This document shows positions 33,357-57,476 of a DNA stretch of 64,000 bases, one piece after another (the first letter of the stretch is position 1; each line of letters opens with the position of its first letter). The notes below the pieces were generated by a model. The model worked only from the letters and a program-made list of their open reading frames with translations. It ran no database searches and was not told where the DNA came from. This DNA is from a virus. Both the position numbers and the translations under genes were made by a program. The stretch covers positions 3,803 to 67,802 of IMG/VR virus record IMGVR_UViG_3300037882_002241; one strand, written 5' to 3'.

Positions 33357-34073
33357 TTAAGGTGCAGCGTAAAATGTTAATGATGGTGTAACGCTCAAAT
33401 CAGTAACTTGAACAGTTGCCCATGAATTAGGCGTTAATGAAACGTAACCTCTTACGTTTCCTGCTAAGTCAAGCAATGCTTCTGTTGCATTAATATTTGA
33501 GTTTTGCCACATATGGTAGTGTGTATTATTTGATAAATCAGTAACTTCAATCAACGGCATTAGGTTATATTGTGCCATCGCCATTGCATTAAGATTAGTT
33601 GAAAGAACGGTGCAAGGTGCGCCAGCAGTTGCACCTTTACGGATTATTAGAATAGCGTCATCTGCTAAAGGTAAAGAAGCCGCGCCACCATTAGCAGTAG
33701 GGCATCCGATTTTAGCAATCTCATTCGCTAATTCATCTTTTGAGAAAACTTGGCTTGTTAGATAATCTAAATAACTACCCAAAACGTTATCAGCTAAACC
33801 ATCATTACATGAAGGAATAACCTCTTTAGTTCCAGTAATTTTATTCTTGAAACGTGCTAATGAAGCTATTCCCGAAAATATATTAGATAACAAACTTTGA
33901 ATTTGTGGAATAGTCCACTTAACATCACGATTGCAATCATTGGGCGGATATTGTGGTGGACAGCCCCATTCAACTTTAGTAGCATCTTCAGCTAATGGAT
34001 TATACAAGCCACCTTGAATATTAGCACTTCCTACATTGCCTTGAGTTCCATCTTGTTGACCGAAAAATGACAT
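33357..34073 (-). CDS. Putative tail fibre attachment protein
   Basis: Position after baseplate wedge genes. Confidence 0.45.
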   Translation of the reverse strand: MSFFGQQDGTQGNVGSANIQGGLYNPLAEDATKVEWGCPPQYPPNDCNRDVKWTIPQIQSLLSNIFSGIASLARFKNKITGTKEVIPSCNDGLADNVLGSYLDYLTSQVFSKDELANEIAKIGCPTANGGAASLPLADDAILIIRKGATAGAPCTVLSTNLNAMAMAQYNLMPLIEVTDLSNNTHYHMWQNSNINATEALLDLAGNVRGYVSLTPNSWATVQVTDLSVTPSLTFYAAP

Positions 34074-35023
34074 TATCTTAACTCCATAGGCTGTGAAACA
34101 AGCCAGTATTTTTTAATTAAACAAACAGCTAATGTTTTTAGAGGGTCATAAATATCATTATCACCACAACCTTTTATAACAGCCGTTACTTTTATTTTAG
34201 GCGTATGACCTACTGGCGCACACATTAACAACCCACCATCTTTATTGCACGGGTCTATTGAACATAAGCCAATAGGTGCGGGCATTAATAAATCTGTGTT
34301 TCTTACTAGCTTTAATCTTAAAACCTCTATAGGAGGGCAAGTGCTTTCTGAATATGTATAACCGTCTTGAACAGTCATACATGGTTCAATAAACTTTTTA
34401 GCGGAAACATTATCATTATGCTCATATGTGTAACCAATTCTAGGGTTATCGCACGGAATTTCATTATCAATCATTAATGATAAGCCTAAAAACTGTAATG
34501 CGTTATTCCATTGCACTAGGTTTTGAGCAAAATCATTGCGGGTTATTCTTAAATAAAAACGCAATAGGTTATAATCAGCAGCACGCTGTGATTCATCACT
34601 TAAAAAGCAATTTGTTGTTTCACAAAAACCACAATCTTTAGGCTCGCATTCTATAGCAGATCCGCAAGCTTTATCAATGCCATATTTTTTAAGCCAAAAT
34701 GAAGGTGTTTTGCTTGTTAATGGGTTCATATCCTGCAATGTATTTAATGTTTTTGATAAAACCTCTTGAACATGACGGGTTCTAAATTTAAACCATCTTT
34801 CAAAAAAGCTAGGCTTGCATGGTTCACAATCCGTTATAGGTTCACATATTGCTAGAGGTGCAGCAATAGGCTTTTGTTTATTAATTACCCAAGCCATACC
34901 ATAAGGCAAAAGCTTTTCTAATGAGCAATCTAAACCACACCAATCACACAAATCTCTTGGCTTGCATAATTCTATAGTATCACTTTTACAAACCACTAAA
35001 GCGCCTGTGAAATCAACAGTCAT
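34073..35023 (-). CDS. Baseplate protein (Mu gp48/YmfQ-like position), Cys-rich
   Basis: LLPYGMAW...W..KYG motif; 21 Cys by manual count. Confidence 0.6.
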   Translation of the reverse strand: MTVDFTGALVVCKSDTIELCKPRDLCDWCGLDCSLEKLLPYGMAWVINKQKPIAAPLAICEPITDCEPCKPSFFERWFKFRTRHVQEVLSKTLNTLQDMNPLTSKTPSFWLKKYGIDKACGSAIECEPKDCGFCETTNCFLSDESQRAADYNLLRFYLRITRNDFAQNLVQWNNALQFLGLSLMIDNEIPCDNPRIGYTYEHNDNVSAKKFIEPCMTVQDGYTYSESTCPPIEVLRLKLVRNTDLLMPAPIGLCSIDPCNKDGGLLMCAPVGHTPKIKVTAVIKGCGDNDIYDPLKTLAVCLIKKYWLVSQPMELR

Positions 35024-36119
35024 ACTGTATTTCGCCTAAATATGGCATAACGTCACATTGTGCGGATATATAGCCTTCGTTTTCTTCATAATCAGCAGAA
35101 TTGAATGAATAGGCAACTAACCCGACGCACCCACCGACTGATTTTATAATCGAGGTTATATCAGATTTGCAATAAGTTCCACCAACACATAAAGATGCTA
35201 AATACTCTCTAATCTCAGTAGCAACCATATTGCGTGAAGATGAATTTAAAGAACCCGCACCTTTAACAAAAATGTTAATTGGTGATAATTTAGCAGCCTT
35301 AACTGTTATTTTAGCGCCGAATAATTTTGAGCCATATTGTGTTGAGCCATAATCAATATCAAAAACTTTATTTTGAACATTAGTTAAAAATCTGTCATCG
35401 GGAATATTATTTAAAAACCCTGCTGCAAATACATAAACGTCTAGTTCACCAACGCAACACTGGCATGATGAAACGCAAGCATTAGTTACACTCGGATAAC
35501 GCAAAGCACGCAAAGCATACCACGGCGCAGAACCAACAGGGGAATCTAAACTTTCACCATATAACACACGATTTAAATATTCAGTCTTGCAATCCTCTTC
35601 ATTTACACCACCGTTAGCATAAACTGTTTGGATTAAACTTTGTATATTCTGAATATTAGTATCAAGGTAACCTTGACCATTAACATTGCCACCAGCACCA
35701 GCCTCACTTGCGATAATTGAAACTCGTTCACTGCCTGTTATACCAATTTGTGTAGGGTTATAATCGCCATCAACGTCTATTACAAACGTCTTACCATTTA
35801 CATTTAATGACAAATTTGAAGGAATAGATGTGCCGTTAATTCCGTTAACAATAGCAATGCCTCTTGATTTACCAGCAGCGCGTCTAGGAATACCTAATAA
35901 TGCACCCCTTGCCTCGATTGCCTCACAAGATTCACCTTGACCATCTATTAAACGGCGTGCCATTGCTTCGACTTCGCCTTCTAGCAAGCCTCTTTCCATA
36001 GCTTGCATTCTTGCAAGCTCTAATGTTATAGGGTCATGAGGCGCACCATTTAAAACCATAGCTTTAAAATTAGCTTCACTCTCGCTGATATAAGATTTTA
36101 CGTCACGTGAAAAAAGCAT
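35013..36119 (-). CDS. Baseplate J / Mu gp47-like
   Basis: GIPRRAA..SRG...GTSIP...AGAGGN...GGVNEE...Y. Confidence 0.85.
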   Translation of the reverse strand: MLFSRDVKSYISESEANFKAMVLNGAPHDPITLELARMQAMERGLLEGEVEAMARRLIDGQGESCEAIEARGALLGIPRRAAGKSRGIAIVNGINGTSIPSNLSLNVNGKTFVIDVDGDYNPTQIGITGSERVSIIASEAGAGGNVNGQGYLDTNIQNIQSLIQTVYANGGVNEEDCKTEYLNRVLYGESLDSPVGSAPWYALRALRYPSVTNACVSSCQCCVGELDVYVFAAGFLNNIPDDRFLTNVQNKVFDIDYGSTQYGSKLFGAKITVKAAKLSPINIFVKGAGSLNSSSRNMVATEIREYLASLCVGGTYCKSDITSIIKSVGGCVGLVAYSFNSADYEENEGYISAQCDVMPYLGEIQYDC

Positions 36120-36640
36120 TATTTCGCCCAGTTATAATAAGTGTTGCGTGTATCGCGAGTTAGATTATAGGATTCATCATTTATCATTATGTTTAAATCA
36201 TAATTATAAGCACCAGTCATTTTATATGAGACACTAACATTCAAATCTAAACCTAATGATTTTAACTTTTCTTTTAAATCAGTAGTCAAGGTTGCTATGT
36301 AATCTTTAATTACTTCACGGCTTAACCCTATTTTTTTGTTATTCCACAATGAATTGCCATGCTTTAAAGAAACAAATCCATCACTTGGTGCACCTCTTCT
36401 TACACCATAACCGCAACTTTTATCTTGTGAATCCGAGTTTATTATAGCATAAACAACGTGACGCATCCAGTTTTTCTTAACAAAACCACCATTTACACTA
36501 TCTATACAAGCATCTAATGGATTGCATTTTATTAATTCACCACATTCATTGTAAAACTCACCACACTCTATAGGTTGGAATGAAAACAATACATTTTGTT
36601 GTGGAATATTAGCTATTTGCGGGCAATTATCAATTATCAT
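36119..36640 (-). CDS. Baseplate protein (Mu gp46-like position)
   Basis: RRG..DGF...GNSLW; synteny. Confidence 0.55.
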   Translation of the reverse strand: MIIDNCPQIANIPQQNVLFSFQPIECGEFYNECGELIKCNPLDACIDSVNGGFVKKNWMRHVVYAIINSDSQDKSCGYGVRRGAPSDGFVSLKHGNSLWNNKKIGLSREVIKDYIATLTTDLKEKLKSLGLDLNVSVSYKMTGAYNYDLNIMINDESYNLTRDTRNTYYNWAK

Positions 36641-36649
36641 TTTTTGCCC

Positions 36650-37189
36650 TTATGGTATGTTAGGAGCTGTAACAAGCCCACTAGAAGTCAATGTGCCATT
36701 TAAGGTTAAGTTACCTTCAAAAGACCAGTCACCACTTATCTTTTTATCTTTTAAATTTATAATAACACCATTACCTTTAATTTCACCTGTTTTAGGGTCA
36801 AAGGTAAAGTCATCACTTAATTTTATTGGTAAATTATCAGTGTTAACCTGCAAGCCATCCTCATTCAATTCTATTGATTGATTAGGATTTAAAGGGTTAG
36901 GTAAATACCCACCTTCTTTTTTAGGTATAAACTGATTTTTCCTTAAACTTTCGTTATTACTTAAGAACGGCTTTGAATCATCACCATAGCTATAGTTTAA
37001 TTCAGCATAACCCGATTTTATATAAGCATTAGTAGGCGTAAATGGAACTTGTTTAAGCTTTAACCCAGTGATTAGGGTAACGTCAGCTACCATACCACCG
37101 TCATTACCCTTGCGTAAATTTTCATACTTTACACGCCCGTTTAAACGAGTGCGAGCATCAGCATCAAAGACATCACCAAACCAACTCAA
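36650..37189 (-). CDS. Baseplate spike (Mu gp45/gpV-like)
   Basis: C-terminal beta-helix FEGNLTLNGTL; synteny. Confidence 0.6.
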   Translation of the reverse strand: MSWFGDVFDADARTRLNGRVKYENLRKGNDGGMVADVTLITGLKLKQVPFTPTNAYIKSGYAELNYSYGDDSKPFLSNNESLRKNQFIPKKEGGYLPNPLNPNQSIELNEDGLQVNTDNLPIKLSDDFTFDPKTGEIKGNGVIINLKDKKISGDWSFEGNLTLNGTLTSSGLVTAPNIP

Positions 37190-38256
37190 TAGACTATCTC
37201 ATTTACTTTTGATTTACTTGCAACCTTGCCTTTGTTTTCCTTATTAGAAAAACCTGTAACTGGTGCAAACTTTAAGGTTGCCTCATACGTTTCTTTAGCC
37301 CCGTGTAAATCAACGGTTTTAATAACTAATTCATCATCTAAACCATGAGGAGGTGAAACAATCCTATGCTTATTCATAGCTAACCATACCTCACCAGAAG
37401 GCGCTAACAAAGAGGGAATTGTAATAGTCACTTCATTGTCAGCTGTAGCACGTCTATTTGCCTCATAAATTGCACGGCTTTTTAACGATTTTGGCGTTTG
37501 GTCACCACTTGCAAATATATACAACAAACCATCATTATTAAGTTTAGATTTTTTCTCTTGATTAGGAGAGAATGAAGCCTCAAAATCCGTTTCAGCACTT
37601 AAATTACGACCACCGAATGCTATATTTTTATTAGACGATTTTTCATCTGAAAACTTGCTTATTATCTTATGAAAATGAACACCATGAACTAAATCACAAC
37701 CCGTTTCATTATAACCTTTTTGTGAAGCTACAATTTCGCCTTCGGCATTTTCATAAATATGAATGCCACGGTCACGAGTTAAAAGATGTAATTCCCTATC
37801 AGTTTTTGTCAAGCCTGTAGTTGTAAATCGCGTTACAGTGTCATCTTCTATTTCGTCAATTTTAATTTTTACGCCAGCGTTTTTTCCTAATTCCTTAAGA
37901 ATGTCACTAGTTTTGGCATTTAGCATATCACCAGTTTTAACAATAGCAGTTGATTTTGTCTTAGCACTATTAGATTTTACACTTAAGCTAATCGAAACGT
38001 CTTCTAAATCTGTTTTTCTTTCAGGTAACTCTAATTCACCAGTTAACATAAGCTTTTCGCCCATATAAACTTTTGCCTTTAAACCCTTTACTAAATCAGG
38101 TCTAAGCATTGTTTTAGCGTCATAATTATGAATAGGTAATTCAAAAGTAGCAGTATTTCGATTAATATCTTGTGCATCCAAATGAATTTTGAAGCTAGAG
38201 AAATTACACTCTATACTTCCTTCTAATTCAAGCCTAACGGGCTGCCGCATAAACAT
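37186..38256 (-). CDS. Baseplate hub (Mu gp44/P-like)
   Basis: LMLTG...RAIYEANRRA...GEVW..N; synteny. Confidence 0.7.
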   Translation of the reverse strand: MFMRQPVRLELEGSIECNFSSFKIHLDAQDINRNTATFELPIHNYDAKTMLRPDLVKGLKAKVYMGEKLMLTGELELPERKTDLEDVSISLSVKSNSAKTKSTAIVKTGDMLNAKTSDILKELGKNAGVKIKIDEIEDDTVTRFTTTGLTKTDRELHLLTRDRGIHIYENAEGEIVASQKGYNETGCDLVHGVHFHKIISKFSDEKSSNKNIAFGGRNLSAETDFEASFSPNQEKKSKLNNDGLLYIFASGDQTPKSLKSRAIYEANRRATADNEVTITIPSLLAPSGEVWLAMNKHRIVSPPHGLDDELVIKTVDLHGAKETYEATLKFAPVTGFSNKENKGKVASKSKVNEIVY

Positions 38257-39358
38257 TACCTATCATGAACAATGGCGTTAAATGAGGATTAAGCGATTCA
38301 ATCTCTTTAAATCTTGAACCATCACCATAAAACTCATGCGCTAAACTTATAGAATTACTATAAACGTTTACATAATGAGTTACAATAGGGGCTAGGCTTT
38401 TAGTTCTCATTAAATAATCAGCTAAATATGTTTTTTCTAATTCATACATAGCTTTTATCAGTTCATGAGAACCCACATTAGAGGCTGCATTAATTTCAGA
38501 ACGCAAAGCCCCTATAATTAATTCCCTATCCTTATACGCCTCATTAGAGGTTAAATAAACCTTATCTTTTAGACTATCAATAAGCTTGGCAATAGCAGCT
38601 AATCTTGTGCATTGAATAATAGCATCTTGGCAATTTGAAGCGGGACTTATAGCAACTGGAATTTTTAAATCATGAATTAACTTTTTTAAGCCAACTGATA
38701 ATTCTTCACTTGGTGTTAACTCATTAATTCTATTAATTGTATTGTTGTAAGCATCATTAGGTCTATAAGCCCAATTATCACCATCCGTTGATATTGAACC
38801 ACTCACATAACTTAAGTTTTTGTTAATTAAGTTTTCAATGTTTGTTGCAACAGATTGAATTTGAGGATAACGCCACGAAGGGACTGCATTAAACGAATAG
38901 CGGCTATTAAAACTTAATGCAATGGCTAAAAATAATGAATTTAAAGCTATGCCTAAAGCATTAAAGCCGCAGGTTATATCTTCACCCCATTCATTGCCTG
39001 TGATTGTTACAGTTGTAACACCTAATGAGGATTTATAATCAGTGTTAAATTCAACAGAATGAACATTAGCAAGCATTAATCCAAATGACGGGTGTATAAG
39101 AGCGTGAGGCATAGGAGCTTGTGCAGCTAGTCGTAAAGCATTTTCTTGTAATTGTATTCCTTCACCGTATAGCATACAAGTGAATGAAAACGATTCCGCC
39201 TTATTGCCTGTATCTGTTGTTACTGGTGAATTACGCCCGTAAATATCAGATTGTGCAGCGCCCTTATTTACAGTTAATTGGCTATTGTGTAGCCATAAAG
39301 GAAATCCTTGATAGCTAAACTCTAAATAATCGGGTGAAGGGCAAGTATTATCAAACAT
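38234..39358 (-). CDS. Mu gp43 DNA circularisation N-terminal domain protein
   Basis: FSYQGFP...DTG.KA..F...LIHPSFG; C-terminal LAHEFYGD..R..EI..LNP..PLF. Confidence 0.8.
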   Translation of the reverse strand: MFDNTCPSPDYLEFSYQGFPLWLHNSQLTVNKGAAQSDIYGRNSPVTTDTGNKAESFSFTCMLYGEGIQLQENALRLAAQAPMPHALIHPSFGLMLANVHSVEFNTDYKSSLGVTTVTITGNEWGEDITCGFNALGIALNSLFLAIALSFNSRYSFNAVPSWRYPQIQSVATNIENLINKNLSYVSGSISTDGDNWAYRPNDAYNNTINRINELTPSEELSVGLKKLIHDLKIPVAISPASNCQDAIIQCTRLAAIAKLIDSLKDKVYLTSNEAYKDRELIIGALRSEINAASNVGSHELIKAMYELEKTYLADYLMRTKSLAPIVTHYVNVYSNSISLAHEFYGDGSRFKEIESLNPHLTPLFMIGNVYAAAR

Positions 39359-39370: not shown

Positions 39371-41599
39371 TTAAATAGGAAAATTGTAAGCAGGTGCAGA
39401 AATAGTAGGGGGTTTAATAATAGCAGTTTCAATGATTGCCTTCATTCTTTGACCCATAATATCACCCGCTTGGCTAGCACTATCAATCATTTTTTTGCCC
39501 ATTGAATCGCCACCTGTCACTAGACTAGTAGTTAGGATTCCACCTACATTTTCATAGGATTGTGTCATTTTAGCACTAGCGGATTCAACTGATTTATTTA
39601 ATTCAGCTGTTATCTTTTGTGGCGTTATATATGTTGCATTATCATAATCAGCGGATTCAGGCTGCCTGTTTTTTACATTGCGACCAGCACTTTCGCCATT
39701 CACCATGTCATCCATTATTCTATTGTATTCATTGCCAAAAGTTACAATCTTTTCTTTCTCATTTTCAATGGCATCTTTAATCATTCTGTCTTTTTTATGA
39801 GCTAGATTGCCAGCCTTAGTGAATTTTCTTTCAGCATGAGCTTTTTTAATCTCTTTATCTATTTCTTTAACAGGTTCACTTTCAATAGCTTGTTTTATGC
39901 CTTCTTTTGCAGCTTGAACTTCAGGCAAAGCGTCTGTTTTTTTACCTAGGTGAATTAATCCTTCAACCGCGAAAGCAACAGCACCAGCAGCACCCGCAAA
40001 TTTAACGGCAGTTCTTGCTATACCCGACAATGAACCACCTATACCACCAATGCCAGTGTTAAATGCTATTTTACCTAACAGTCCATTAGCGACGATTAAT
40101 TTATTATTAACCCCCTCATTACCATCCTTAAAAACTTTTGAAACTGCCAACGTTGGAAGTGCAATCATGCCCTTAACAGTATTAGGTGTTTCTTCACTGT
40201 TAGCAAGCGAATTTAACCCACCAGCTAAACCACCCATTATAGAGCTATAAATAGGCTGCAATGTCTTCGTTTGTGCATCAACAGCGTTTTTGAATTGTGA
40301 AGCAACAGCAGCGTTAGTTGATTGAATATCAGTGCCAACTAAAGCCTTAACTGATTTTTCAGATATATCAATTTTACGGGTTCGGTCAAGGTTACTTTTT
40401 ATTTCATCACGTTTATCAATATTGAATTTTACAAATTCACTAGAGCCTTTTTGAAACCCTAGTTTAGTTATGGCTTCACCAACCGCGCCAGCATCTGTTA
40501 AATCAACACCCATTTTTTCAAGAATAGGAACTACTTTTTTCTCAACCCATTCAAAAGGATTAGCTTGTAATAATTTATAATCAGCCGCGCCAGTTTCCGT
40601 TCTTAAGCCATAACTTTTCAGAGTTTCTTTGTTTTTAACTGCAAGATTAGAGCGCGTCAAATCATCAGCAAACATTCTTAATGATTCACCACCCGATTTA
40701 CCACCGTATTCATCTGCCATTTGACCGATGGTTATAATAGCGTCAGAATTTAAACCACGCTTTGCACCTTTAGCGCTTTTCATGTATTCTTTAACTTGGT
40801 CTGCTTTTAAATCTTTACCGCCCGATAATAAAACCTTAGTTAAGGCTTCCATAGCAATGTTAAATTCTTTGGCATTATCAGCCATGCCCATTAAATCAGC
40901 CGTTTTGGTTAGTTTACCAGCCGAATCAGCACCTAGCCTTGCATCTCCACCATTGTTTAACGTTACGGCTTGAGCAACCTTACCAATTACCCTAGCAATG
41001 TCACCCATTTGGCGTTTATCTTGCAATGAAGAATCGGCAGTTCTTAATGCCTCTTGAATAGCACCTGCAGTTTGCGTTCTATATTCATTAGATATTTCAG
41101 TCCCTAATTTTTCTATTGTCGCTTTAGTTTCAGGGCTTTCAGCATAAATCAACTTATTTAAGCTTCTATTACGTGAACCTTCTGTTATGCCTTGCCCACC
41201 AGCAGAAGCACCAACACCAACTTTATTAAAACTGCCATAAGTAGCATGAGCGCCAGCACGCCACTTCATACGGTCTATTGTGCTAGATTCTGCCCATGTC
41301 TTACCACGTTTCATATTAGATTGCTGAACATTAGCACTTCTAATACCAATAGAGTTTAAGTGCTGCAATGCTTTTGCTTGGCGGTTATAAGCATCCGTTA
41401 CTTTATCAATGCCGTTTACATTCACATTGACTTTTCTTAATGACATAGGCTCTAATGGCATAGCCATTTTAGAAGCACCACTTTTCATCATAGCTTGCGT
41501 TTTTGCTAATTTTGCATAAGCCGCGTTAAGCTTAAGAACCACCTTGCTTGCATGGTCAACCGCCGTCAATTTTGCTTCGACTTTATAAGAAGTGGTCAT
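39371..41599 (-). CDS. Tape measure protein
   Basis: AKLTAVDHAS N-terminus, Ala/Gly/Lys-rich helical, after chaperone. Confidence 0.85.
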   Translation of the reverse strand: MTTSYKVEAKLTAVDHASKVVLKLNAAYAKLAKTQAMMKSGASKMAMPLEPMSLRKVNVNVNGIDKVTDAYNRQAKALQHLNSIGIRSANVQQSNMKRGKTWAESSTIDRMKWRAGAHATYGSFNKVGVGASAGGQGITEGSRNRSLNKLIYAESPETKATIEKLGTEISNEYRTQTAGAIQEALRTADSSLQDKRQMGDIARVIGKVAQAVTLNNGGDARLGADSAGKLTKTADLMGMADNAKEFNIAMEALTKVLLSGGKDLKADQVKEYMKSAKGAKRGLNSDAIITIGQMADEYGGKSGGESLRMFADDLTRSNLAVKNKETLKSYGLRTETGAADYKLLQANPFEWVEKKVVPILEKMGVDLTDAGAVGEAITKLGFQKGSSEFVKFNIDKRDEIKSNLDRTRKIDISEKSVKALVGTDIQSTNAAVASQFKNAVDAQTKTLQPIYSSIMGGLAGGLNSLANSEETPNTVKGMIALPTLAVSKVFKDGNEGVNNKLIVANGLLGKIAFNTGIGGIGGSLSGIARTAVKFAGAAGAVAFAVEGLIHLGKKTDALPEVQAAKEGIKQAIESEPVKEIDKEIKKAHAERKFTKAGNLAHKKDRMIKDAIENEKEKIVTFGNEYNRIMDDMVNGESAGRNVKNRQPESADYDNATYITPQKITAELNKSVESASAKMTQSYENVGGILTTSLVTGGDSMGKKMIDSASQAGDIMGQRMKAIIETAIIKPPTISAPAYNFPI

Positions 41600-48039: not shown

Positions 48040-49506
48040 TTATGGAGAAATTAATTTGATTGCAGCATTAGGGCAATTCATTACGAAGTCCCATTCAGCA
48101 TGACCAACAAAAACGTCACAGAACGAGCCATTTGAACCAGTATAACGGGTTACAGTTGGTGAAGTGTGCATAATCAATGTAGCAACTTGTTTTAAGTCAC
48201 CAACGATATAATTAGCCTTCATTGGCTGCAATCCACCGACTGAATTGCCGTAGCCCGATGTATGGAATGAACGATTAGTTGTTCTAACAGGAATACCTTG
48301 AACCTCTAATTGACCATTAACGAATTGAACTGCACGACTTGGGTTAGTCGAAGTATCAGCCATTGCAGATAGTTGCGTTCTGCCTAAACGTGTCGTGTAA
48401 ATTTTTACATTAGATTTGTTTTGGATTGTTAACGCGTCATATGCAGCGACAAGAGCTTGCCATGTGATAAATGCAGGAGCAGGAACAGCGCCAGTTGTTA
48501 ATTGCGTTTTCTCGATTTTATCAAGCCAATTATCAACATTAGCACCATTACCAAACATAATATGTGCGTTCATGCCATTAATCATTTGTTGCGAAATACC
48601 ACGACGAACACGACCAGCAATATCAAGCGTTGAATCTTCAATCTGATGACGGTGCATACAGAATTTAGAACCCATAAGCTTAACGCGGCGGGTTACTTCA
48701 GGTGCTAATACAAGGTTATTACCGTTTGGCATTTCACAAGTATCATCGTTTACGAAAACAGCCTCTTGATATTCAAGAAAATCAGGTGCATATTTGTAAT
48801 CACGTTTACGAACGGAGCGGAAAGCAAACTCACCCAATAGGTTATCAGGTTCATCTAAGCAGGTTTTGAAATCACGAAGAATTTCAGGGTCATAATACGA
48901 ACCACCACCAACTAATGAGAAGTTCATAGCAGGGCTATTCATAATCTTACGAGCATATTCTAAATCATTGCCCTTAAGCACATCAGAAGCGGCAGAGAAA
49001 AGGCTAGAATTAGAAAACTTAGACTTAAATGCAGTAGCAGCTTTATTGTAAGAATCTGATTTTGTGTTGTAAAGTGAGGAAGTATGCTCATGATAAGCCT
49101 CTAATTCTTCTTTACGAGCTGTAAATTCTTTAGCAAGTTCAATTTCATCTTCGACATGAGCAGAAAGAATATCAAAGCCTAATTCTTTGCTAAAAGAACC
49201 ACGTGATTGCTCACCATTCAATGATTTTTCTTTTAATCCACGTGATTCAGCCGCTTGCATAATTGCATCTAAATTAGTATACTTTTCTTTCAAATCTGAA
49301 ATAGAAGCATCTTTGTCATTTAGTTGCTTTTGAAATTCATTGGTTGCTTCAAGGATTGCTTTGTTGATTGATTCATCATTAGAAGACTTGAATTTAGCCT
49401 CAAATTTCGTTTCAAGAGCTTGAAAATGTTTCGCTGTCTCATCTGTAGCGACAAGGGCAATTTTTGCAAAAACATCTTCCTTTGTTGTAATATTTTCGGT
49501 TGTCAT
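48040..49506 (-). CDS. Major capsid protein (HK97 fold with N-terminal scaffold domain)
   Basis: Coiled-coil N-terminus, GGGSYY, IEDS..DI, IMFGNG, GIPV, IVGDLK. Confidence 0.85.
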   Translation of the reverse strand: MTTENITTKEDVFAKIALVATDETAKHFQALETKFEAKFKSSNDESINKAILEATNEFQKQLNDKDASISDLKEKYTNLDAIMQAAESRGLKEKSLNGEQSRGSFSKELGFDILSAHVEDEIELAKEFTARKEELEAYHEHTSSLYNTKSDSYNKAATAFKSKFSNSSLFSAASDVLKGNDLEYARKIMNSPAMNFSLVGGGSYYDPEILRDFKTCLDEPDNLLGEFAFRSVRKRDYKYAPDFLEYQEAVFVNDDTCEMPNGNNLVLAPEVTRRVKLMGSKFCMHRHQIEDSTLDIAGRVRRGISQQMINGMNAHIMFGNGANVDNWLDKIEKTQLTTGAVPAPAFITWQALVAAYDALTIQNKSNVKIYTTRLGRTQLSAMADTSTNPSRAVQFVNGQLEVQGIPVRTTNRSFHTSGYGNSVGGLQPMKANYIVGDLKQVATLIMHTSPTVTRYTGSNGSFCDVFVGHAEWDFVMNCPNAAIKLISP

Positions 49507-49531: not shown

Positions 49532-50278
49532 TTATTTGAGAATGTCTAAAAGAACATCGTCAACTGTTTTGAAAACCAAATCACTTGGCTTTGTGAAAAG
49601 CGAACCATCAATCTTTTTTAAATCAGATATGAAAATTTGCGCTTGTTTTTGGCTCAAACCGAACACTTCCCGTGTTAAATCTTCGCACACTCTAACATCC
49701 ATTGAAAATTTATCCTTATTGGTAAGCATAAAATCCTTAAAGGCTGTTATAGAATCTTTTTTTACTTCCTCTTGCTCTAAACCAAAGGTTTTTAAAGCTT
49801 GGGAAAATGTTACTTGTGAACCCGCAATAGCAGGGTTAACACATAATGAAATCTCGTCTAAAAATGTTTCTGTAATATCAATCTTTGTGCCGTCACTTGA
49901 CTTTTTAGTTTTAGTACGGTCAACTTCAATGCCAACACTTGCACCTAATGGCTTACCACCGTTTTCAGCATTAAAATTAATATATGACGCGGCATCTTTG
50001 CCATATTGATTATCAAGATTTAACTTTGATTTTGCATATAGATATTCATCATCTTGATATAATTCAGTAATAACGCCAATTGGCATTGAATATGTATCAT
50101 GTGACCATAGCAAAGCAGGTTTTAAACCACTTTCAATATACTTTGAAAAGCAACCTTTTTTAAATTCAAAGATTTTATGCCCTGTGACGTTGAAAGCGCA
50201 AGCCTTCATTGTAAACTCACCATTTTCTAATACTTTAGTTTTACCTTGATTAGAAATGTCATTTTGAAAAAATCTCAT
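49532..50278 (-). CDS. HK97-family prohead protease
   Basis: KKGCF...LLWSHD...PIG...L...G.SVG...EISLCVNPA. Confidence 0.9.
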   Translation of the reverse strand: MRFFQNDISNQGKTKVLENGEFTMKACAFNVTGHKIFEFKKGCFSKYIESGLKPALLWSHDTYSMPIGVITELYQDDEYLYAKSKLNLDNQYGKDAASYINFNAENGGKPLGASVGIEVDRTKTKKSSDGTKIDITETFLDEISLCVNPAIAGSQVTFSQALKTFGLEQEEVKKDSITAFKDFMLTNKDKFSMDVRVCEDLTREVFGLSQKQAQIFISDLKKIDGSLFTKPSDLVFKTVDDVLLDILK

Positions 50279-51453
50279 TGTTTTTCAACCTTATTTTGTT
50301 TGTCTTCGATTTGAAGCTTTGTTTTATCAATTTTAATAAATTTTTCAGTAGGGAGTAACGCCCCGCATATCGTGTTTAGTAATGGTTCAGCATATTCCGC
50401 ATAAACAGTCATTTCTAAAAAGTGTAATCGTGATTGCATCATGTTTTCATACGTGCCTTGACCAACGCCAATTAAATCAGATGGAACGCCCATGGCTATT
50501 GCAATATCTTTTTCAACCTGTTGCATTAAATCAACTTTGAAAAGGTCACTTGTAATCTGTGATAAACTGTTAACATTTACATCACCGAAGGCTAACATAT
50601 GCTTACCTTCATCTTTAGCGCCTTTTAAACGGGCGACTAAAGATTTGCTCATCTCTTCAATAGCATTAGAAGCCATTTCCGCAGGGGGAATAACTGAAAT
50701 AATGCTAGGTAATATAGGGTTTTTCTCTAGGGTTACAGAAGCTCTATGATATTGCATCGTTTGCAATTTAGCTGCTTGAACGGCTGCAATTAACGGAATA
50801 AACGGGGTTTTACTATCAAAAGCGCTAGGTGTATATTTAACAGCGAACCCATTAGGCGCATCAATTATAGCCCAATCTGTGTAATTTAAGATAAAAGGTA
50901 TAACATCGGATTCATCACCCTTGCTTTTATGACGAATACCAACCTCTTTTTCTGAATTTTCACGGTCTTTGACAACGATATAATCTGCATAAGGGCAAAT
51001 CTCAATATAAAGACGTTGTGAGCTTTCAGTAAATGCTAATTTTAAAAAGCAACCACCTTTTAGCATCTGTTGCCAAAAAATTAACTGTAGCATTTCATTC
51101 TTTGACGAATACAACAAAGGATTAATCAAAGCGTCATATACGTATTCAGGCTTAATAGCCTTAGCTCTTTTTACGCCTTTAATATCTTTAACAGGATTGC
51201 CGCTATTCGATTTTAAAGCCTCAAATTGAACATTAGAAGCCTCAGAACGTATCAACTGGACACAACGTGCTAAAGTAGGGTTGCGTGTAACATAGGCTAT
51301 TAATTCCCTATCTGTTACATGAGATAAAAGAAAAGGGTTGTTGCTATCGTCTTCTATTTTAAACGGATTGAATTTTTCAGGTTCACATGGGGTTACAGGC
51401 TGTGAAGACATAGTAACAGTCTCTTTATTGCCAAACAACCCGAATAAATTCAT
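50275..51453 (-). CDS. Portal protein
   Basis: ARCVQLI...NP...IAIAMGVPSDLIG..TYEN. Confidence 0.85.
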   Translation of the reverse strand: MNLFGLFGNKETVTMSSQPVTPCEPEKFNPFKIEDDSNNPFLLSHVTDRELIAYVTRNPTLARCVQLIRSEASNVQFEALKSNSGNPVKDIKGVKRAKAIKPEYVYDALINPLLYSSKNEMLQLIFWQQMLKGGCFLKLAFTESSQRLYIEICPYADYIVVKDRENSEKEVGIRHKSKGDESDVIPFILNYTDWAIIDAPNGFAVKYTPSAFDSKTPFIPLIAAVQAAKLQTMQYHRASVTLEKNPILPSIISVIPPAEMASNAIEEMSKSLVARLKGAKDEGKHMLAFGDVNVNSLSQITSDLFKVDLMQQVEKDIAIAMGVPSDLIGVGQGTYENMMQSRLHFLEMTVYAEYAEPLLNTICGALLPTEKFIKIDKTKLQIEDKQNKVEKQ

Positions 51454-51455: not shown

Positions 51456-51650
51456 TTAGCGTTCAATCGTCTTTTTAGTGTTGTCTATTGGTGCAACAGA
51501 TTGTGCATTAGCACTTAATCCACTTAATGTAGGGGCAGGAGCAGATACTAAACCAGCAGAAGCTACACTTGAAACACCACCGCGCCAATTGTAATTAGCT
51601 ATTTGCTGTTGGACTGGGGTCATTCCACCACATGAAGAACATCCACTCAT
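51456..51650 (-). CDS. Small protein, MSGCSSCGG N-terminus
   Basis: Coupled ORF before portal. Confidence 0.55.
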   Translation of the reverse strand: MSGCSSCGGMTPVQQQIANYNWRGGVSSVASAGLVSAPAPTLSGLSANAQSVAPIDNTKKTIER

Positions 51651-51964
51651 TGATTTAACTCCGCTTTTTTCTTAGCTTGTCTTATTTCAAATAAAATATA
51701 TGTTAGAGCTAATGGATACGTTAAAAGCACCCAATTGCTTAAGAAGCATAAACCAACTGTTAATAACGTATTAATAACACCAGCAAGAATAAACCTAACC
51801 GCTATGCAGCCTGTGCATCCTTCAGGATTATTTTCTGTTATTGTTGCTTTCCAGTTTCTCTCTGCCCAAAACAAAAACGCATTACCTGTCTTTGTCATGT
51901 AAACCCAAGGATAAAAATAGTTATCCTGTAAATACTTAACCATTAATAACGCCCGATAATTCAC
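51647..51964 (-). CDS. Membrane protein with CxxC (GCTGC)
   Basis: CxxC followed by two TM segments. Confidence 0.55.
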   Translation of the reverse strand: MNYRALLMVKYLQDNYFYPWVYMTKTGNAFLFWAERNWKATITENNPEGCTGCIAVRFILAGVINTLLTVGLCFLSNWVLLTYPLALTYILFEIRQAKKKAELNQ

Positions 51965-55775: not shown

Positions 55776-55869
55776 AGGAGCGACCCATCACTAGGCGGCT
55801 CGTTTAGGTATGCCAGACCCATTTCTAGGCGTGGCATTGGAGTAGGAGCGACCCATCACTAGGCGGCTC
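55776..55869 (-). repeat. Three tandem GNRA hairpins (core CGCCTAG(T/A)(G/A)ATGGGTC)
   Basis: Units 55776-55801 and 55844-55869 identical; middle unit keeps the core with a compensatory outer stem. Confidence 0.85.
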
Positions 55870-55878
55870 ATTGATTAG

Positions 55879-56682
55879 TTAAACTTGACGTAATCGAATT
55901 TTACGACCACGGTCATTGTATATCGGTTTTCCGTATTTAATCAAAACACGGGGATAAATTTCAGCTTTAATCGTTTGGCTTGGATTACCTAGAATAATCT
56001 GCCTTTCATTATCAGGGTCATTACACCCTATAGCAAAAGCAAAATATTGAACTTGATTGCCAATGGTTCTTGTGCTGTCACAAAACATAGGTCGGTCATT
56101 ATTTACACCTGCAAATGTTCTATTTCCACCTTGACCATTCTTACCAAGAGCTGAATGCTCTTGACCGAAAGTCACGCCGTTTAGGTTGCCATTACCGCCA
56201 CCCCAGTTTGAATTAATATCGGCAATGCGAACGATAGGGAAATTATATGCTTTGTTATTCGTATCTAAAAACCAATTTTGCAAGTCAAAAATCTGATATT
56301 GATTATTAGATATCAATTCTCGCTCTGTGATACGTTCAGGAGGTTGCGACCCGCTTCTTGTGTTATGACGACCATTGCGAACCCTTGATATATCATTAGA
56401 GCCATCCCAACTTGCAGGGTGTACCCAGCCACGCTTATTGTCGTAACGATAACGGACACCATTGCCTAAAGCACGAGAAACACCCGCAGAATAACCGCTC
56501 TTATAACGTAACAAAGCAGCAAATGGCTTTAAATCTTTCAATCTTTCCCATTCAGCTTTTGTTAATCCACCAACAGAAACAGTATCATGCTGCCCCGATT
56601 GAACACCATTAGGGTTCAAGAAAAGCCTTGCTTGTGGCAGGATTAAACCACCACCAATACTTAATGAACCACCGCTTGACAT
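55879..56682 (-). CDS. Hypothetical protein (basic, Gly/Asn/Arg-rich)
   Basis: 267 aa coupled ORF. Confidence 0.6.
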   Translation of the reverse strand: MSSGGSLSIGGGLILPQARLFLNPNGVQSGQHDTVSVGGLTKAEWERLKDLKPFAALLRYKSGYSAGVSRALGNGVRYRYDNKRGWVHPASWDGSNDISRVRNGRHNTRSGSQPPERITERELISNNQYQIFDLQNWFLDTNNKAYNFPIVRIADINSNWGGGNGNLNGVTFGQEHSALGKNGQGGNRTFAGVNNDRPMFCDSTRTIGNQVQYFAFAIGCNDPDNERQIILGNPSQTIKAEIYPRVLIKYGKPIYNDRGRKIRLRQV

Positions 56683-57476
56683 TATGCAAAAGTCCCGTGA
56701 ATGTTAGCATAAGCGTTGCCTATTGCTCTAATTTTATATTCACGGCGCAAAGTTTGCTCTTGACCACGTGATAAATTAAATTCCTTTGTTTCACCATTTA
56801 GTAAATAAGCGATTGTGCCATCGGGCATATCAACTTCAATTCGGTTAGGTGACGATTGACCGTTTGTTACGCCAGCCGCTGTGACTGTAACAGATAATAA
56901 ATCACCCGCAATTAAACCTGTATCAACAGTATCAGGCTGTCCCGCAAAATTAGGATTAGAAGCAGATAAACCAGCTCCCGCAATTTGTGGTAATGCAGAA
57001 CCAGTAACATTTACGTTATTCGAAATAACACAAGCGCCCTTTAAAATACCAGCAGGCTTAACCAAAGAAGCAACACCTGTATCATCATTTTGCCAGTAAA
57101 CTACACCATTAGGAATACCGTTTTTCTTTACAACTAATTGTGAGTAATTAACGCCATTTAAGCACCATGCAACAGGGTCACTCTCGAAATCATTATCAGG
57201 GCAATTAACTAAAGTGTTAATACTTGCAACAGGAAAAGCCGCACCAGTTGATAAATTCAAAGCGGTTGTATTTTCAGGAATGCCCGTCGTATTAGTGTCT
57301 AGCCATTGATGAACAATTCTAATTCTATCACCCGCATCAGTGCAACGATAAATAACCTCACTGTCATATTTTGGCAATGGCAACGGGTTAGGTTGTGGCG
57401 GTGGCAAATCAGGAAGCGTAACATTAGGCGCGGGGCAAGCCACGCCGTTAACTACTTGAAACATTACTTGGGTCAT
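56682..57476 (-). CDS. Putative structural protein
   Basis: Pro-rich N-terminus, paired Cys modules, beta-rich C-terminus. Confidence 0.55.
   Translation of the reverse strand: MTQVMFQVVNGVACPAPNVTLPDLPPPQPNPLPLPKYDSEVIYRCTDAGDRIRIVHQWLDTNTTGIPENTTALNLSTGAAFPVASINTLVNCPDNDFESDPVAWCLNGVNYSQLVVKKNGIPNGVVYWQNDDTGVASLVKPAGILKGACVISNNVNVTGSALPQIAGAGLSASNPNFAGQPDTVDTGLIAGDLLSVTVTAAGVTNGQSSPNRIEVDMPDGTIAYLLNGETKEFNLSRGQEQTLRREYKIRAIGNAYANIHGTFA

What the first reader, a model, noticed from the sequence alone, without database searches (positions are those of the whole stretch)
33357..57476. Cysteine-enriched virion shell with a Cys-free tape measure: candidate disulfide-crosslinked phage particle
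Seen (manual counts): baseplate protein 34073-35023 has 21 Cys in 316 aa, sheath 16 in 523, baseplate J 11 in 368. Many structural ORFs put Cys at their termini (sheath ...TTSSC, J ...QYDC, 46655 ...IVKC, 47223 ...KPC, MSCCEEWIC, MSGCSSCGG, MFDNTCP, MIIDNCP, MSINENSCP). The 742-aa tape measure, which must be ejected, has no Cys, and the capsid scaffold half has none while the mature half has 5. The genome also carries tRNA-Cys, a WCSPC thioredoxin and a CxxC membrane protein (51647-51964). Known: tailed-phage structural proteins are usually Cys-poor. Inference: exposed subunits may be stitched by inter-subunit disulfides or metal sites, possibly with phage-encoded redox help.
Basis: partly seen in the sequence, partly recalled or inferred. 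Interest (0 to 1): 0.75.

Follow-up and report, generated by a model that had tools for sequence, protein, structure and literature searches.

The report
Distant Milano-like phage with disulfide-stitched particle

Summary
The counts are correct. The window is 64 kb of a 67.8-kb IMG/VR phage record. Its virion genes are collinear with, and 21-27% identical to, those of Agrobacterium phage Milano. Cryo-EM and mass spectrometry showed a virion-wide disulfide network in Milano (PMC10811340, PMC10491603).

- **Cysteine mapping:** 41 of 61 window cysteines in 12 structural proteins align to Milano cysteines: sheath 14/16, capsid 5/5, collar-like 7/7.
- **Pairs:** 14 of 15 published bond pairs are kept or lost together (P = 6.5e-4).
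- **One clade:** cysteine-rich sheaths sit on one side of a single tree branch; their neighbours have 0-5 cysteines.
- **Missing bond:** the window lacks Cys47:Cys182, the sheath bond broken on contraction in Milano.
- **Not diagnostic:** the tape measure has no cysteine in 15 of 15 related loci, including 7 phages with cysteine-poor sheaths.
- **Thioredoxin:** absent from 4 of 4 Milano-like records.
- **tRNA-Cys:** only a non-canonical Rfam match.
- **Conserved pair:** the CxxC membrane protein and a small MxxCxxCG protein recur across the clade.

This is a new deep-branching member of a known kind. The scan reached the same reading on other DNA (e1-5347714).

The parts
42901..44472 (-). Tail sheath, 523 aa, 16 Cys. 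C22:C254 and C225:C343 correspond to the Milano inter-subunit bonds 14:244 and 216:327. C489 and C523 correspond to 467 and 501. There is no Cys in residues 87-224, so the lock bond 47:182 is absent.
   Evidence: phrog_165 E 1.1e-24. The only PDB hits are the 7-7-1 and Milano sheaths, E 1.7e-20 and 4.5e-20. Cys columns.
42473..42889 (-). Tail tube by position, 138 aa, 2 Cys (C8, C78). Only C78 aligns to a Milano tube Cys (Cys82).
   Evidence: Position after the sheath. The HMM is not significant (E 1.8) and neither is hhalign (E 0.19). Cys columns.
41730..42473 (-). Tape-measure chaperone, 1 Cys
   Evidence: BLASTP to Milano gp22, E 0.003
39371..41599 (-). Tape measure protein, 742 aa, 0 Cys
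   Evidence: BLASTP to Milano gp24, E 7e-8. 0 Cys in 15 of 15 related loci.
38234..39358 (-). Baseplate centrepiece (Mu N / DNA-circularisation type), 374 aa, 5 Cys. N-terminal C6 aligns to Milano Cys5.
   Evidence: PF07157 E 3e-10. BLASTP to gp25, E 4.6e-10..
37186..38256 (-). Baseplate hub, 356 aa, 2 Cys
   Evidence: BLASTP to gp26, E 3e-11
36650..37189 (-). Central-spike position protein, 179 aa, 0 Cys
   Evidence: Position only. It is the top hit of the gp27 HMM but not significant (E 0.17).
36119..36640 (-). Baseplate wedge 1, 173 aa, 6 Cys. 5 align to Milano gp28 Cys3, 22, 29, 41 and 74.
   Evidence: HMM E 3.5e-8. BLASTP E 4.6e-4..
35013..36119 (-). Baseplate wedge 2 (Baseplate J), 368 aa, 11 Cys. 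5 align to Milano gp29 Cys, including the C-terminal C368 to Cys395.
   Evidence: PF04865 E 1.2e-22. BLASTP E 1.7e-11..
34073..35023 (-). Baseplate wedge 3, 316 aa, 21 Cys (6.65%)
   Evidence: hhalign to the Milano gp30 family: 97.9%, E 5e-13. Its relatives have 12-24 Cys and share 8-16 of the 21 columns. Clade gp30 homologues have 19-24 Cys.
33357..34073 (-). Protein in the short-tail-fibre position, 238 aa, 5 Cys
   Evidence: Position after wedge 3 only. No significant similarity.
46655..47161 (-). Collar-like protein, 168 aa, 7 Cys in the pattern C-x5-CCC ... C-x10-C-x7-C(end). All 7 fall on the 7 invariant collar Cys columns. It is 62 aa shorter than Milano gp13.
   Evidence: Position upstream of neck 1. 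7 of 7 columns matched, against at most 4 in 150 shuffles and 0-2 in 7 control proteins. However the HMM gives no hit and hhalign gives E 0.051.
47223..47354 (-). 43-aa ORF with 4 Cys, at the place of Milano linking protein 2 (gp128, 38 aa, 4 Cys)
   Evidence: Position and composition only
47626..48027 (-). Capsid decoration protein, 133 aa, 3 Cys. C52 and C66 align to Milano gp10 Cys60 and Cys74.
   Evidence: HMM E 9e-4. hhalign E 5.6e-5..
48040..49506 (-). Major capsid protein, 488 aa, 5 Cys, all aligned to Milano Cys186, 227, 252, 440 and 456
   Evidence: PF05065. HMM E 3.6e-9..
46130..46651 (-). Neck 1 (head-tail connector), 173 aa, 1 Cys. It lacks the Milano Cys117/Cys120 loop.
   Evidence: HMM E 3.3e-5..
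45302..45697 (-). Homologue of Milano gp17, 0 Cys
   Evidence: BLASTP 40% identity, E 4.7e-14
50275..51453 (-). Portal protein, 5 Cys
   Evidence: PF04860. BLASTP to gp7, E 8e-4.
49532..50278 (-). Prohead protease
   Evidence: PF04586 E 1.1e-9
51647..51964 (-). 105-aa membrane protein with CTGC directly before the hydrophobic stretch. It shares the motif N...CxxC-x3-R-x(0-3)-G plus a hydrophobic stretch with Milano gp4.
   Evidence: Alignment. Hydropathy. Regex scan. No family found.
51456..51650 (-). 64-aa protein starting MSGCSSCGG, the counterpart of Milano gp5 (MGCGCGKG; the GenBank annotation calls it virion-associated)
23734..23806 (+). tRNA-like gene with anticodon loop CUGCAAA (Cys, GCA) and a bulged anticodon stem
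   Evidence: Rfam RF00005, 50.6 bits. Not called by ARAGORN.
6644..6880 (-). 78-aa thioredoxin (WCSPC). Probably unrelated to the virion.
   Evidence: PF00085 E 1.8e-11. Absent from 4 of 4 Milano-like records.

Best explanation
The region is the virion module of an uncultured myophage (GC about 35%). The phage is a deep-branching relative of the Agrobacterium phages Milano, 7-7-1 and OLIVR4.

Inferred from homology, its particle is covalently stitched by disulfides in the same way:
- **Sheath:** subunits are linked along both 6-start helices (C22:C254 and C225:C343).
- **Collar:** a Cys-rich collar ring is tied to the top of the sheath.
- **Capsid:** capsomers are linked MCP to MCP (C216:C478, C257:C463) and MCP to decoration protein (C283:C66).
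- **Baseplate:** wedge proteins 1, 2 and 3 and the first sheath ring are joined through N- and C-terminal cysteine arms.

The bonds would form once the particle meets oxidising conditions, and they would add mechanical and thermal robustness. That is shown for Milano and inferred here.

The window differs from Milano in five ways. It lacks the sheath bond Cys47:Cys182, the only sheath bond that has to break for contraction in Milano. It lacks half of the tube network, three capsid bonds and the neck-to-capsid bonds. Its collar lacks about 60 residues. Its sheath lattice may therefore contract without reduction, with any redox gate lying in the baseplate (inference).
For: Homology and gene order. 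BLASTP to Milano gives E <= 1e-3 for 8 proteins in the same order: sheath 3e-22, gp17 5e-14, wedge 2 1.7e-11, hub 3e-11, centrepiece 5e-10, tape measure 7e-8, wedge 1 5e-4 and portal 8e-4. Clade HMMs add the capsid protein (3.6e-9), neck 1 (3.3e-5) and the decoration protein (9e-4). hhalign adds wedge 3 (97.9%, E 5e-13). The only solved structures matching the sheath are those of 7-7-1 and Milano.

Parallel Cys budgets, window against Milano: sheath 16/16, tape measure 0/0, wedge 1 6/6, wedge 3 21/14, wedge 2 11/17, collar 7/7.

Positions. 41 of 61 window Cys align to Milano Cys.

Pairs. 14 of 15 non-redundant published bond pairs are concordant: 8 kept, 6 lost, 1 half-kept (permutation P = 6.5e-4).

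Within the clade. Sheath columns 14, 244, 216 and 327 are Cys in 14 of 14 Cys-rich sheaths and in 0 of 9 outgroup sheaths. Window C229 and C316 are present together or absent together in 14 of 14. The same holds for C489 and C523, where one of the 14 (L010) has gaps at both columns because the locus ends there.

Tree. The 16 Cys-rich sheaths lie on one side of a single branch (100/100). The window with its two 55% relatives is sister (100/99) to the ten sheaths closest to Milano.

Published experiments. Cryo-EM and mass spectrometry show the bonds, and DTT is needed for contraction (passages and discussion of PMC10811340). DTT abolishes resistance to sonication and heat (passages of PMC10491603). 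The 7-7-1 capsid bonds come from passages of PMC12796354.
Against: - There are no particles and no chemistry for this phage. Everything rests on homology at 21-27% identity.
- 20 of 61 Cys do not align to Milano Cys: wedge 2 only 5 of 11, centrepiece 1 of 5, and hub, neck 1 and the terminator-position protein 0 of 5 together.
- Homology is not statistically shown for the collar-like protein (no HMM hit; hhalign E 0.051) or the tube (E 1.8 and 0.19). A single-sequence AlphaFold model of the collar was unusable (pLDDT 29.5).
- MAFFT favours Cys-Cys columns. I controlled for this by shuffling only for the collar.
- I coded the pair table by hand from the alignments. Coding tube C8 as the equivalent of Milano Cys3 would give 13 of 15.
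- The module as a whole is no richer in Cys than the rest of the genome (1.64% against 1.66%).
- Host and habitat are unknown, so an oxidising milieu is assumed.
- The CxxC clusters in wedge 3 could bind metal instead.
Confidence: 0.8

Rival explanations
1. Many of the cysteines, above all the CxxC-type clusters of wedge 3 (CDWCGLDC, CEPITDCEPC, CEPKDCGFCETTNC) and the collar CCC motif, bind zinc or iron rather than forming disulfides. The particle would then be braced by metal sites.
For: Closely spaced CxxC motifs in 34073-35023. The Milano central spike is said to hold an Fe site, through histidines (passage).
Against: In Milano the homologous wedge 3 and collar Cys are modelled as disulfides (Table 1 of PMC10811340; Table 2 of PMC10491603). 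Pairwise keeping and loss fits two-partner bonds better than four-ligand sites. Wedge 3 matches no metal-binding family.
Confidence: 0.08
2. The cysteines are an inherited lineage trait that no longer forms a network in this phage. For example the host may live where thiols stay reduced, so the particle is held together non-covalently like other myophages.
For: Several Milano bonds are already lost here: the sheath lock, 3 capsid bonds, the neck-capsid bonds and most of the tube bonds. The habitat is unknown.
Against: All 16 sheath Cys are invariant at 55% identity in the window's own lineage. 16 of 21 wedge 3 Cys are kept at 43% identity. Losses come as whole pairs, which implies continued selection on the remaining pairs.
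Confidence: 0.1
3. The pattern is chance or compositional bias in an AT-rich genome.
For: Window-wide Cys is already 1.66%, and the structural module is not higher overall.
Against: Binomial P = 2e-7 for 14 of 16 sheath Cys at 24.6% identity, and P = 5e-12 for 41 of 61. The collar pattern was reached in 0 of 150 shuffles. Outgroup sheaths of the same fold have 0-5 Cys.
Confidence: 0.01

Closest known systems
Agrobacterium phage Milano, with 7-7-1 and OLIVR4 (genus Schmittlotzvirus): myophages with a virion-wide disulfide network (PMC10811340, PMC10491603, PMC12796354)
   Same: Same order of virion genes from portal to wedge 3. Same Cys-rich proteins (sheath, collar, wedges 1-3, capsid and decoration protein) and same Cys-free proteins (tape measure, gp17, gp19). 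41 of 61 Cys are positionally shared, including the sheath bonds 14:244 and 216:327, all 7 collar Cys and the N- or C-terminal cysteine arms. The gp4-like and gp5-like gene pair is also shared.
   Different: Only 21-27% amino-acid identity, and GC about 35%. The large terminase is of another type (PF03237/PF17289; best match Roseobacter phage CRP-6 at 37%; no BLASTP hit to Milano gp6 at E<1). About 6 kb of genes lie between terminase and portal. There is no sheath lock 47:182. The tube has 2 Cys instead of 4. There are no MCP bonds 190:385 and 302:455, no MCP223:DP105 bond, and no neck 1 Cys117/Cys120 loop. The collar is 62 aa shorter. No gp16-type linking protein was found, and the receptor-binding proteins show no similarity. 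The window carries a thioredoxin that Milano lacks.
Uncultured Milano-like phages in IMG/VR (L004-L013) and a Bradyrhizobium lablabi genome locus (L023)
   Same: Sheaths with 10-21 Cys, most ending in ...NC. Wedge 3 with 19-24 Cys, collar with 8-12 Cys, tape measures with no Cys. One clade with the window in the sheath tree.
   Different: GC 48-67%. These are 27-54% identical to the Milano sheath, whereas the window lineage is 19-25% identical to all of them and sits on a branch of 2.07 changes per column.
Siphovirus tail tube protein gp39 with two cysteines per monomer forming inter-ring disulfides (Protein Sci 2026, PMC13576161; abstract read)
   Same: A tube protein with exactly two Cys, as in the window tube (C8, C78). 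The disulfide-bearing forms are one branch of a larger family.
   Different: A non-contractile tail and another protein family (PF08813). I tested no homology to the window tube.
HK97-type capsid chainmail (isopeptide cross-links); recalled, not from a call
   Same: Covalent cross-linking of an HK97-fold capsid after assembly, with a prohead protease and an N-terminal scaffold domain.
   Different: The chemistry is Lys-Asn isopeptide rather than disulfide. It is irreversible and confined to the capsid.

Membership tests
Milano-type disulfide-networked myophage virion | Collinear virion module homologous to Milano gp7-gp30 | tested here: met
   8 proteins at BLASTP E<=1e-3 in the same order. 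HMMs add MCP, neck 1, decoration protein and wedge 1. hhalign gives wedge 3 at E 5e-13.
Milano-type disulfide-networked myophage virion | Sheath cysteines of the inter-subunit bonds 14:244 and 216:327 | tested here: met
   Window C22, C254, C225 and C343. These columns are Cys in 14 of 14 Cys-rich sheaths and in 0 of 9 outgroup sheaths. HMMER pairs 244, 216 and 327 independently; window C22 lies outside its aligned range 67-493.
Milano-type disulfide-networked myophage virion | Sheath lock bond Cys47:Cys182 that must be reduced for contraction | tested here: not met
   The window has S58 and R191. In the 14-sequence alignment only Milano has Cys there, and OLIVR4 has both. The window sheath has no Cys in residues 87-224.
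Milano-type disulfide-networked myophage virion | Fully cross-linked tube (Cys3:19 and Cys43:82) | tested here: not met
   The window tube has 2 Cys and only C78 aligns (to Cys82). Homology of the tube itself is not significant.
Milano-type disulfide-networked myophage virion | Cys-rich collar linking sheath to neck (7 Cys: 19, 22, 23, 24, 211, 221, 229) | tested here: inconclusive
   7 of 7 columns matched, against at most 4 in 150 shuffles, and the gene is in the right position. However the HMM gives no hit, hhalign gives E 0.051, and the fold model failed.
Milano-type disulfide-networked myophage virion | Capsid MCP-MCP and MCP-decoration disulfide cysteines | tested here: met
   5 of 5 window MCP Cys align to Milano 186, 227, 252, 440 and 456. 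DP C66 aligns to Cys74. The pairs 190:385, 302:455 and MCP223:DP105 are lost as whole pairs.
Milano-type disulfide-networked myophage virion | Disulfide bonds physically present in particles; DTT-dependent stability and contraction | not testable with these tools
   No particles are available. The tools gave no coordinates from which to measure Cys-Cys distances.
Genus Schmittlotzvirus | Close genome-wide similarity to Milano, 7-7-1 and OLIVR4 (about 80% ANI among them, passage of PMC12796354) | tested here: not met
   Sheath 24.6% identical. Only 2 phage records match the sheath at all, at under 25% identity. Long separate branch in the tree.

The most novel reading that the evidence does not exclude
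The disulfide network is not an Agrobacterium-linked adaptation, as the Milano authors suggested. It would be the ancestral state of a wide, old clade of myophages, and this low-GC lineage is its most divergent sampled branch.

In that clade the sheath lattice bonds are compatible with contraction, and the reducible lock is a late addition in Schmittlotzvirus.

The clade would also carry its own undescribed two-gene module: a small membrane protein with CxxC at the membrane boundary, followed by a small MxxCxxCG protein that GenBank annotates as virion-associated in Milano. That module would take part in making or gating the network.
Probability: 0.15. Interest if true: 0.6.

Novelty: new member of a known kind. 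Interest (0 to 1): 0.4.

Why it matters
It extends a recently solved and so far genus-restricted phenomenon to a lineage that shares only about a quarter of its residues, and almost certainly has another host.

The cysteines survive that distance, and they are kept or lost as known bond pairs. That is natural covariation evidence that the bonds are functional.

It also separates a conserved core from lineage-specific additions. The core is the sheath bonds 14:244 and 216:327, the collar, two capsid pairs and the wedge arms. The additions are the contraction lock and the full tube network.

This helps anyone designing robust phage particles or protein nanotubes, and it bears on the open question of how such phages un-stitch themselves at infection. 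It does not reveal a new principle.

Tried and rejected
- **Close relatives with flanking genes.** The sheath alone in viral contigs found none. The 3-sequence sheath alignment in metagenome contigs found none. The search for homologous proteins gave only 2 sheath relatives at 55% and none for the collar-like protein. Cys conservation within the window's own lineage could therefore be tested only for the sheath and wedge 3.
- **Collar structure.** Single-sequence AlphaFold gave pLDDT 29.5 and was unusable, so I ran no fold search.
- **Sequence support for collar and tube.** hhalign and HMM searches were not significant.
- **Host.** Genome contigs gave only distant sheath relatives, in Bradyrhizobium, Rhodocyclaceae, Sphingomonas, Azospirillum, Ewingella and Eikenella. 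The large terminase is nearest Roseobacter phage CRP-6 at 37%. Neither names a host.
- **Thioredoxin as redox helper.** Rejected: present in 1 of 5 records searched, and that one is the window's own.
- **Cys-free tape measure as a sign of the network.** Rejected: 15 of 15 loci, including 7 of 7 outgroup loci.
- **gp4-like protein.** The ESM Atlas gave no score of 0.9 or more and no useful fold match. Pfam and PHROGs gave nothing.
- **Receptor-binding proteins.** No similarity to Milano gp124-127, gp1-3 or gp31.
- **Earlier notes on this genome.** None.
- **Complex prediction.** Not used. That tube or sheath subunits bind each other is not in question, and the tool's description promises scores rather than Cys-Cys distances.
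- **Supplementary files.** The supplements of the Milano papers (intrachain bonds, alignments with 7-7-1 and OLIVR4) were not seen. They may list further bonds that bear on the 20 unaligned Cys.

Full report
**1. What the window is**

The window is bases 3803-67802 of a 67,802-base IMG/VR virus record. The record is linear, and CheckV estimates it 79% complete. GC is 29-44%, mostly about 35%. All genes from 28.6 to 58.8 kb lie on the minus strand.

Pfam and PHROGs name these genes:

| Gene | Coordinates | Evidence |
|---|---|---|
| Large terminase | 57480-58817 | T4-type |
| Portal | 50275-51453 | PF04860 |
| Prohead protease | 49532-50278 | PF04586 |
| HK97-fold capsid protein | 48040-49506 | PF05065 |
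| Connector | 46130-46651 | weak Pfam match PF05135 (E 0.0032, below cut-off) |
| Sheath | 42901-44472 | phrog_165 |
| Mu-N-type centrepiece | 38234-39358 | PF07157 |
| Hub | 37186-38256 | weak Pfam matches PF21683/PF22255 (below cut-off) |
| Baseplate J | 35013-36119 | PF04865 |

**2. The observation**

The quoted terminal cysteines are all there. The capsid protein has no Cys in its first 215 residues and five afterwards. The WCSPC protein is a thioredoxin. 51647-51964 has CTGC just before a hydrophobic stretch.

There are two qualifications:
- **tRNA-Cys.** ARAGORN finds Trp, Phe, Gln and Met but no Cys. Rfam finds a fifth tRNA-like gene at 23734-23806, whose anticodon loop reads CUGCAAA (GCA, Cys). 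Its anticodon stem carries an inserted base and a mismatch.
- **Enrichment.** The virion module as a whole has 1.64% Cys against 1.66% for the window. The enrichment lies in particular proteins: wedge 3 6.65%, collar-like 4.2%, wedge 1 3.5%, sheath 3.1%, J 3.0%.

**3. What it is**

The sheath matches only two records among 50,697 phage records: Agrobacterium phages Milano and OLIVR4. It matches only two distinct PDB sequences, the sheaths of 7-7-1 and Milano.

The Milano annotation shows the same order of genes: portal, protease, capsid, decoration protein, small proteins, collar, neck 1, neck 2, gp17-19, sheath, tube, chaperone, tape measure, centrepiece, hub, spike, wedges 1-3 and a short fibre. 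Homology to Milano is supported as follows:

| Protein | Method | E-value |
|---|---|---|
| Sheath | BLASTP | 3e-22 |
| gp17 | BLASTP | 5e-14 |
| Wedge 2 | BLASTP | 1.7e-11 |
| Hub | BLASTP | 3e-11 |
| Centrepiece | BLASTP | 5e-10 |
| Tape measure | BLASTP | 7e-8 |
| Wedge 1 | BLASTP | 5e-4 |
| Portal | BLASTP | 8e-4 |
| Capsid protein | clade HMM | 3.6e-9 |
| Neck 1 | clade HMM | 3.3e-5 |
| Decoration protein | clade HMM | 9e-4 |
| Wedge 3 (the 21-Cys protein) | hhalign to the gp30 family | 5e-13 (97.9%) |

**4. Why that matters**

Cryo-EM and mass spectrometry showed that Milano is held together by a virion-wide network of inter-chain disulfides. I read the passages, Table 1 and the discussion of PMC10811340, and the passages and Table 2 of PMC10491603. 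The same is reported for the 7-7-1 capsid (passages of PMC12796354).

In Milano, DTT is needed for chemically induced contraction, and DTT abolishes the particle's resistance to sonication and heat. The per-protein Cys budgets of Milano parallel the window closely:

| Protein | Milano | Window |
|---|---|---|
| Sheath | 16/503 | 16/523 |
| Tape measure | 0/778 | 0/742 |
| Wedge 1 | 6/178 | 6/173 |
| Collar | 7/230 | 7/168 |
| Wedge 3 | 14/286 | 21/316 |
| Wedge 2 | 17/396 | 11/368 |

**5. Position-by-position test**

These counts come from MAFFT alignments that include IMG/VR relatives. They give the number of window Cys that align to a Milano Cys:

| Protein | Aligned / total |
|---|---|
| Sheath | 14/16 |
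| Capsid protein | 5/5 |
| Collar-like | 7/7 |
| Wedge 1 | 5/6 |
| Wedge 2 | 5/11 |
| Decoration protein | 2/3 |
| Tube | 1/2 |
| Centrepiece | 1/5 |
| Neck 2 | 1/1 |
| Neck 1 | 0/1 |
| Terminator-position protein | 0/2 |
| Hub | 0/2 |
| **Total** | **41/61** |

Overall identity in these alignments is 13-25%. The binomial P is 5e-12 for the total and 2e-7 for the sheath alone. The HMMER alignment to the PDB chains independently pairs 11 sheath Cys.

In the window's own lineage, all 16 sheath Cys are invariant at 55% identity. Of the 21 wedge 3 Cys, 16 are kept at 43% identity, and 4 are invariant across six relatives that themselves hold 12-24 Cys.

**6. Pairs behave as pairs**

I took 15 non-redundant bonds published for Milano or 7-7-1 and asked whether the window retains each partner.
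- **8 are kept whole:** sheath 14:244, 216:327 and 467:501; MCP 186:456 and 227:440; MCP252:DP74; collar 22:211 and 23:229.
- **6 are lost whole:** sheath 47:182; MCP 190:385 and 302:455; MCP223:DP105; centrepiece 318:wedge 2 Cys3; tube 3:19.
- **1 is half kept:** tube 43:82.

The permutation P is 6.5e-4. I coded the states by hand from the alignments, and with the alternative coding of tube C8 the count is 13 of 15. Over all 27 listed bonds, including those that share a Cys, 20 are concordant.

Across the clade, the two window-specific sheath Cys (C229, C316) occur together or not at all in 14 of 14 sheaths. The same holds for C489 and C523, where L010 shows gaps at both columns because its locus ends there. 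MCP 190:385 is concordant in 9 of 9 sequences and MCP 302:455 in 8 of 9.

**7. The clade and its controls**

A profile search of IMG/VR returned 19 loci. Ten have sheaths with 10-20 Cys, most ending in ...NC. Nine have 0-4 Cys.

Of nine loci from bacterial genomes, one (Bradyrhizobium lablabi) has a 21-Cys sheath and eight have 0-5.

In a maximum-likelihood tree of 31 sheaths, the 16 Cys-rich ones lie on one side of a single branch (100/100). The label needs only one change, which 0 of 500 shuffles matched. The window and its two relatives form a long branch (2.07 changes per column), sister at 100/99 support to the ten sheaths nearest Milano.

Clade members show the same budget as the window: wedge 3 with 19-24 Cys, wedge 2 with 14-24, collar with 8-12 and tube with 4. 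The 21 Cys of 34073-35023 are therefore typical of the clade rather than exceptional.

**8. What is different here**

- **No sheath lock.** Cys47:Cys182 is the bond that Milano breaks on contraction, and the paper reports it conserved in 7-7-1 and OLIVR4. Its columns hold S and R in the window and no Cys in the other 12 Cys-rich sheaths. OLIVR4 has both. The window sheath has no Cys at all between residues 87 and 224. The two inter-subunit bonds it keeps are the two that persist in contracted Milano sheath. By inference, this sheath lattice could contract without reduction, and any redox gate would lie in the baseplate.
- **Reduced tube network.** The tube has two Cys rather than four.
- **No neck-to-capsid link.** Neck 1 lacks the loop carrying Cys117 and Cys120, which ties neck to capsid in Milano.
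- **Shorter collar.** The collar-like protein is 62 residues shorter.
- **Different terminase and extra genes.** The terminase is of another type. Seven ORFs, including a 980-aa one at higher GC, lie between it and the portal.

**9.

- **Tape measure.** It has no Cys in 15 of 15 related loci, including 7 of 7 phages whose sheaths are Cys-poor, and none in Milano. A Cys-free tape measure is the norm and says nothing about the network.
- **Thioredoxin.** It is found only in the window's record among five searched: the window's own, the complete Milano genome, two CheckV 100% records and one 41% fragment. It lies next to a dATP/dGTP diphosphohydrolase-domain gene. A role in nucleotide metabolism is more likely (inference).
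- **CxxC membrane protein.** This is more interesting. 51647-51964 shares with Milano gp4 and its IMG/VR homologues the motif N...CxxC-x3-R-x(0-3)-G followed by a hydrophobic stretch. It is followed by a small protein starting MSGCSSCGG, like Milano gp5 (MGCGCGKG), which the GenBank annotation calls virion-associated. A regex scan found such a small ORF in the sense direction in 8 of 14 Cys-rich sources scanned. It also matched one antisense ORF inside a tape-measure gene, which I take to be spurious. It matched 2 of 20 outgroup sources, both probably spurious ORFs. Not every locus covers the relevant region, so these counts are lower bounds. The two Milano papers do not discuss their own gp4 or gp5 (word searches). 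The function is unknown, and no family or Atlas match helps.
- **Mini-protein.** The 43-aa, 4-Cys ORF 47223-47354 sits where Milano's 38-aa, 4-Cys linking protein 2 sits. This rests on position and composition only.

**10. Weak points**

- Homology of the collar-like protein and of the tube is not statistically supported.
- The collar assignment rests on gene position and on a Cys pattern that 0 of 150 shuffles and 0 of 7 control proteins reached. The reversed sequence reached 5 of 7.
- The fold model failed.
- No tool gave coordinates, so no Cys-Cys distance was measured.
- Host and habitat are unknown.
- I did not see the supplementary tables of the Milano papers.

**11. Verdict**

The phenomenon is published for Milano, 7-7-1 and OLIVR4, and this scan has already reported a Milano-like case on other DNA (e1-5347714).

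This case adds three things:
- a much more distant lineage;
- evidence that known bonds are kept or lost as pairs;
- the finding that the contraction lock is specific to the Agrobacterium phages, whereas the Milano authors tied the network to the Agrobacterium host (passage).

I file it as a new member of a known kind, of moderate interest.

Noticed in passing
window 51456-51964 (-); L001 3913-4287; L004 208-676; L011 202-643; L006 644-838; L013 22-186; L023 1591-1794: A conserved two-gene module in the Cys-rich clade: a small membrane protein with CxxC-x3-R-x(0-3)-G at the edge of its hydrophobic stretch (Milano gp4), followed by a 42-72-aa protein starting M-x(1,2)-C-x(1,2)-C-G (Milano gp5). 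It lies upstream of the terminase in Milano, L004, L011 and L013, but upstream of the portal in the window and L006. The Milano papers I searched do not discuss it.
   Followed up: partly
window 23734-23806 (+): A tRNA-like gene between tRNA-Phe and tRNA-Gln with a Cys (GCA) anticodon loop and a bulged anticodon stem. Rfam scores it 50.6 bits and ARAGORN misses it. In the 34 minus-strand ORFs from 28660 to 58817, TGC (74) outnumbers TGT (61) despite about 35% GC.
   Followed up: partly
window 17768-18388 (+): A 206-aa protein with 30 Cys (14.6%). Its C-terminal third is a tandem array of CxxC hexapeptides (..CRDCTNCRDCTN..). It lies beside the Gp157 and ERF recombination genes and has no Pfam match.
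   Followed up: no
window 52430-55372 (-): A 980-aa ORF with 5 Cys, in a stretch of 43-44% GC against about 35% around it. It lies between terminase and portal with six other ORFs that have no family. It may be a receptor-binding protein. It shows no similarity to the Milano fibre or garland proteins.
   Followed up: partly
window 7964-9097 (-): An IS605 OrfB/TnpB-type protein (PF01385, PF12323 and the Cas12f1-like TNB domain) inside the phage genome.
   Followed up: no
window 5943-6656 (-): A protein with the N-terminal domain of dATP/dGTP diphosphohydrolases (PF18909, E 4.7e-27), next to the thioredoxin. From recall, this domain is linked to modified-base (2-aminoadenine) pathways. I did not look for a PurZ-type gene.
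   Followed up: no
window 12947-13468 (-): A 173-aa protein with 12 Cys. It has weak CCCH zinc-finger and hexapeptide-repeat matches, all below the curated cut-offs.
   Followed up: no
window 57480-58817 (-): The large terminase is T4-type (PF03237 and PF17289). It is nearest Roseobacter phage CRP-6 at 37% identity and gives no BLASTP hit to Milano's terminase at E<1. The packaging gene therefore has a different origin from the virion module.
   Followed up: partly
L016 and L025: The sheath of an IMG/VR provirus record (L016) is identical to that of a locus in Sphingomonas aquatica LMG 28596 (L025). This names the host of that Cys-poor outgroup phage.
   Followed up: no
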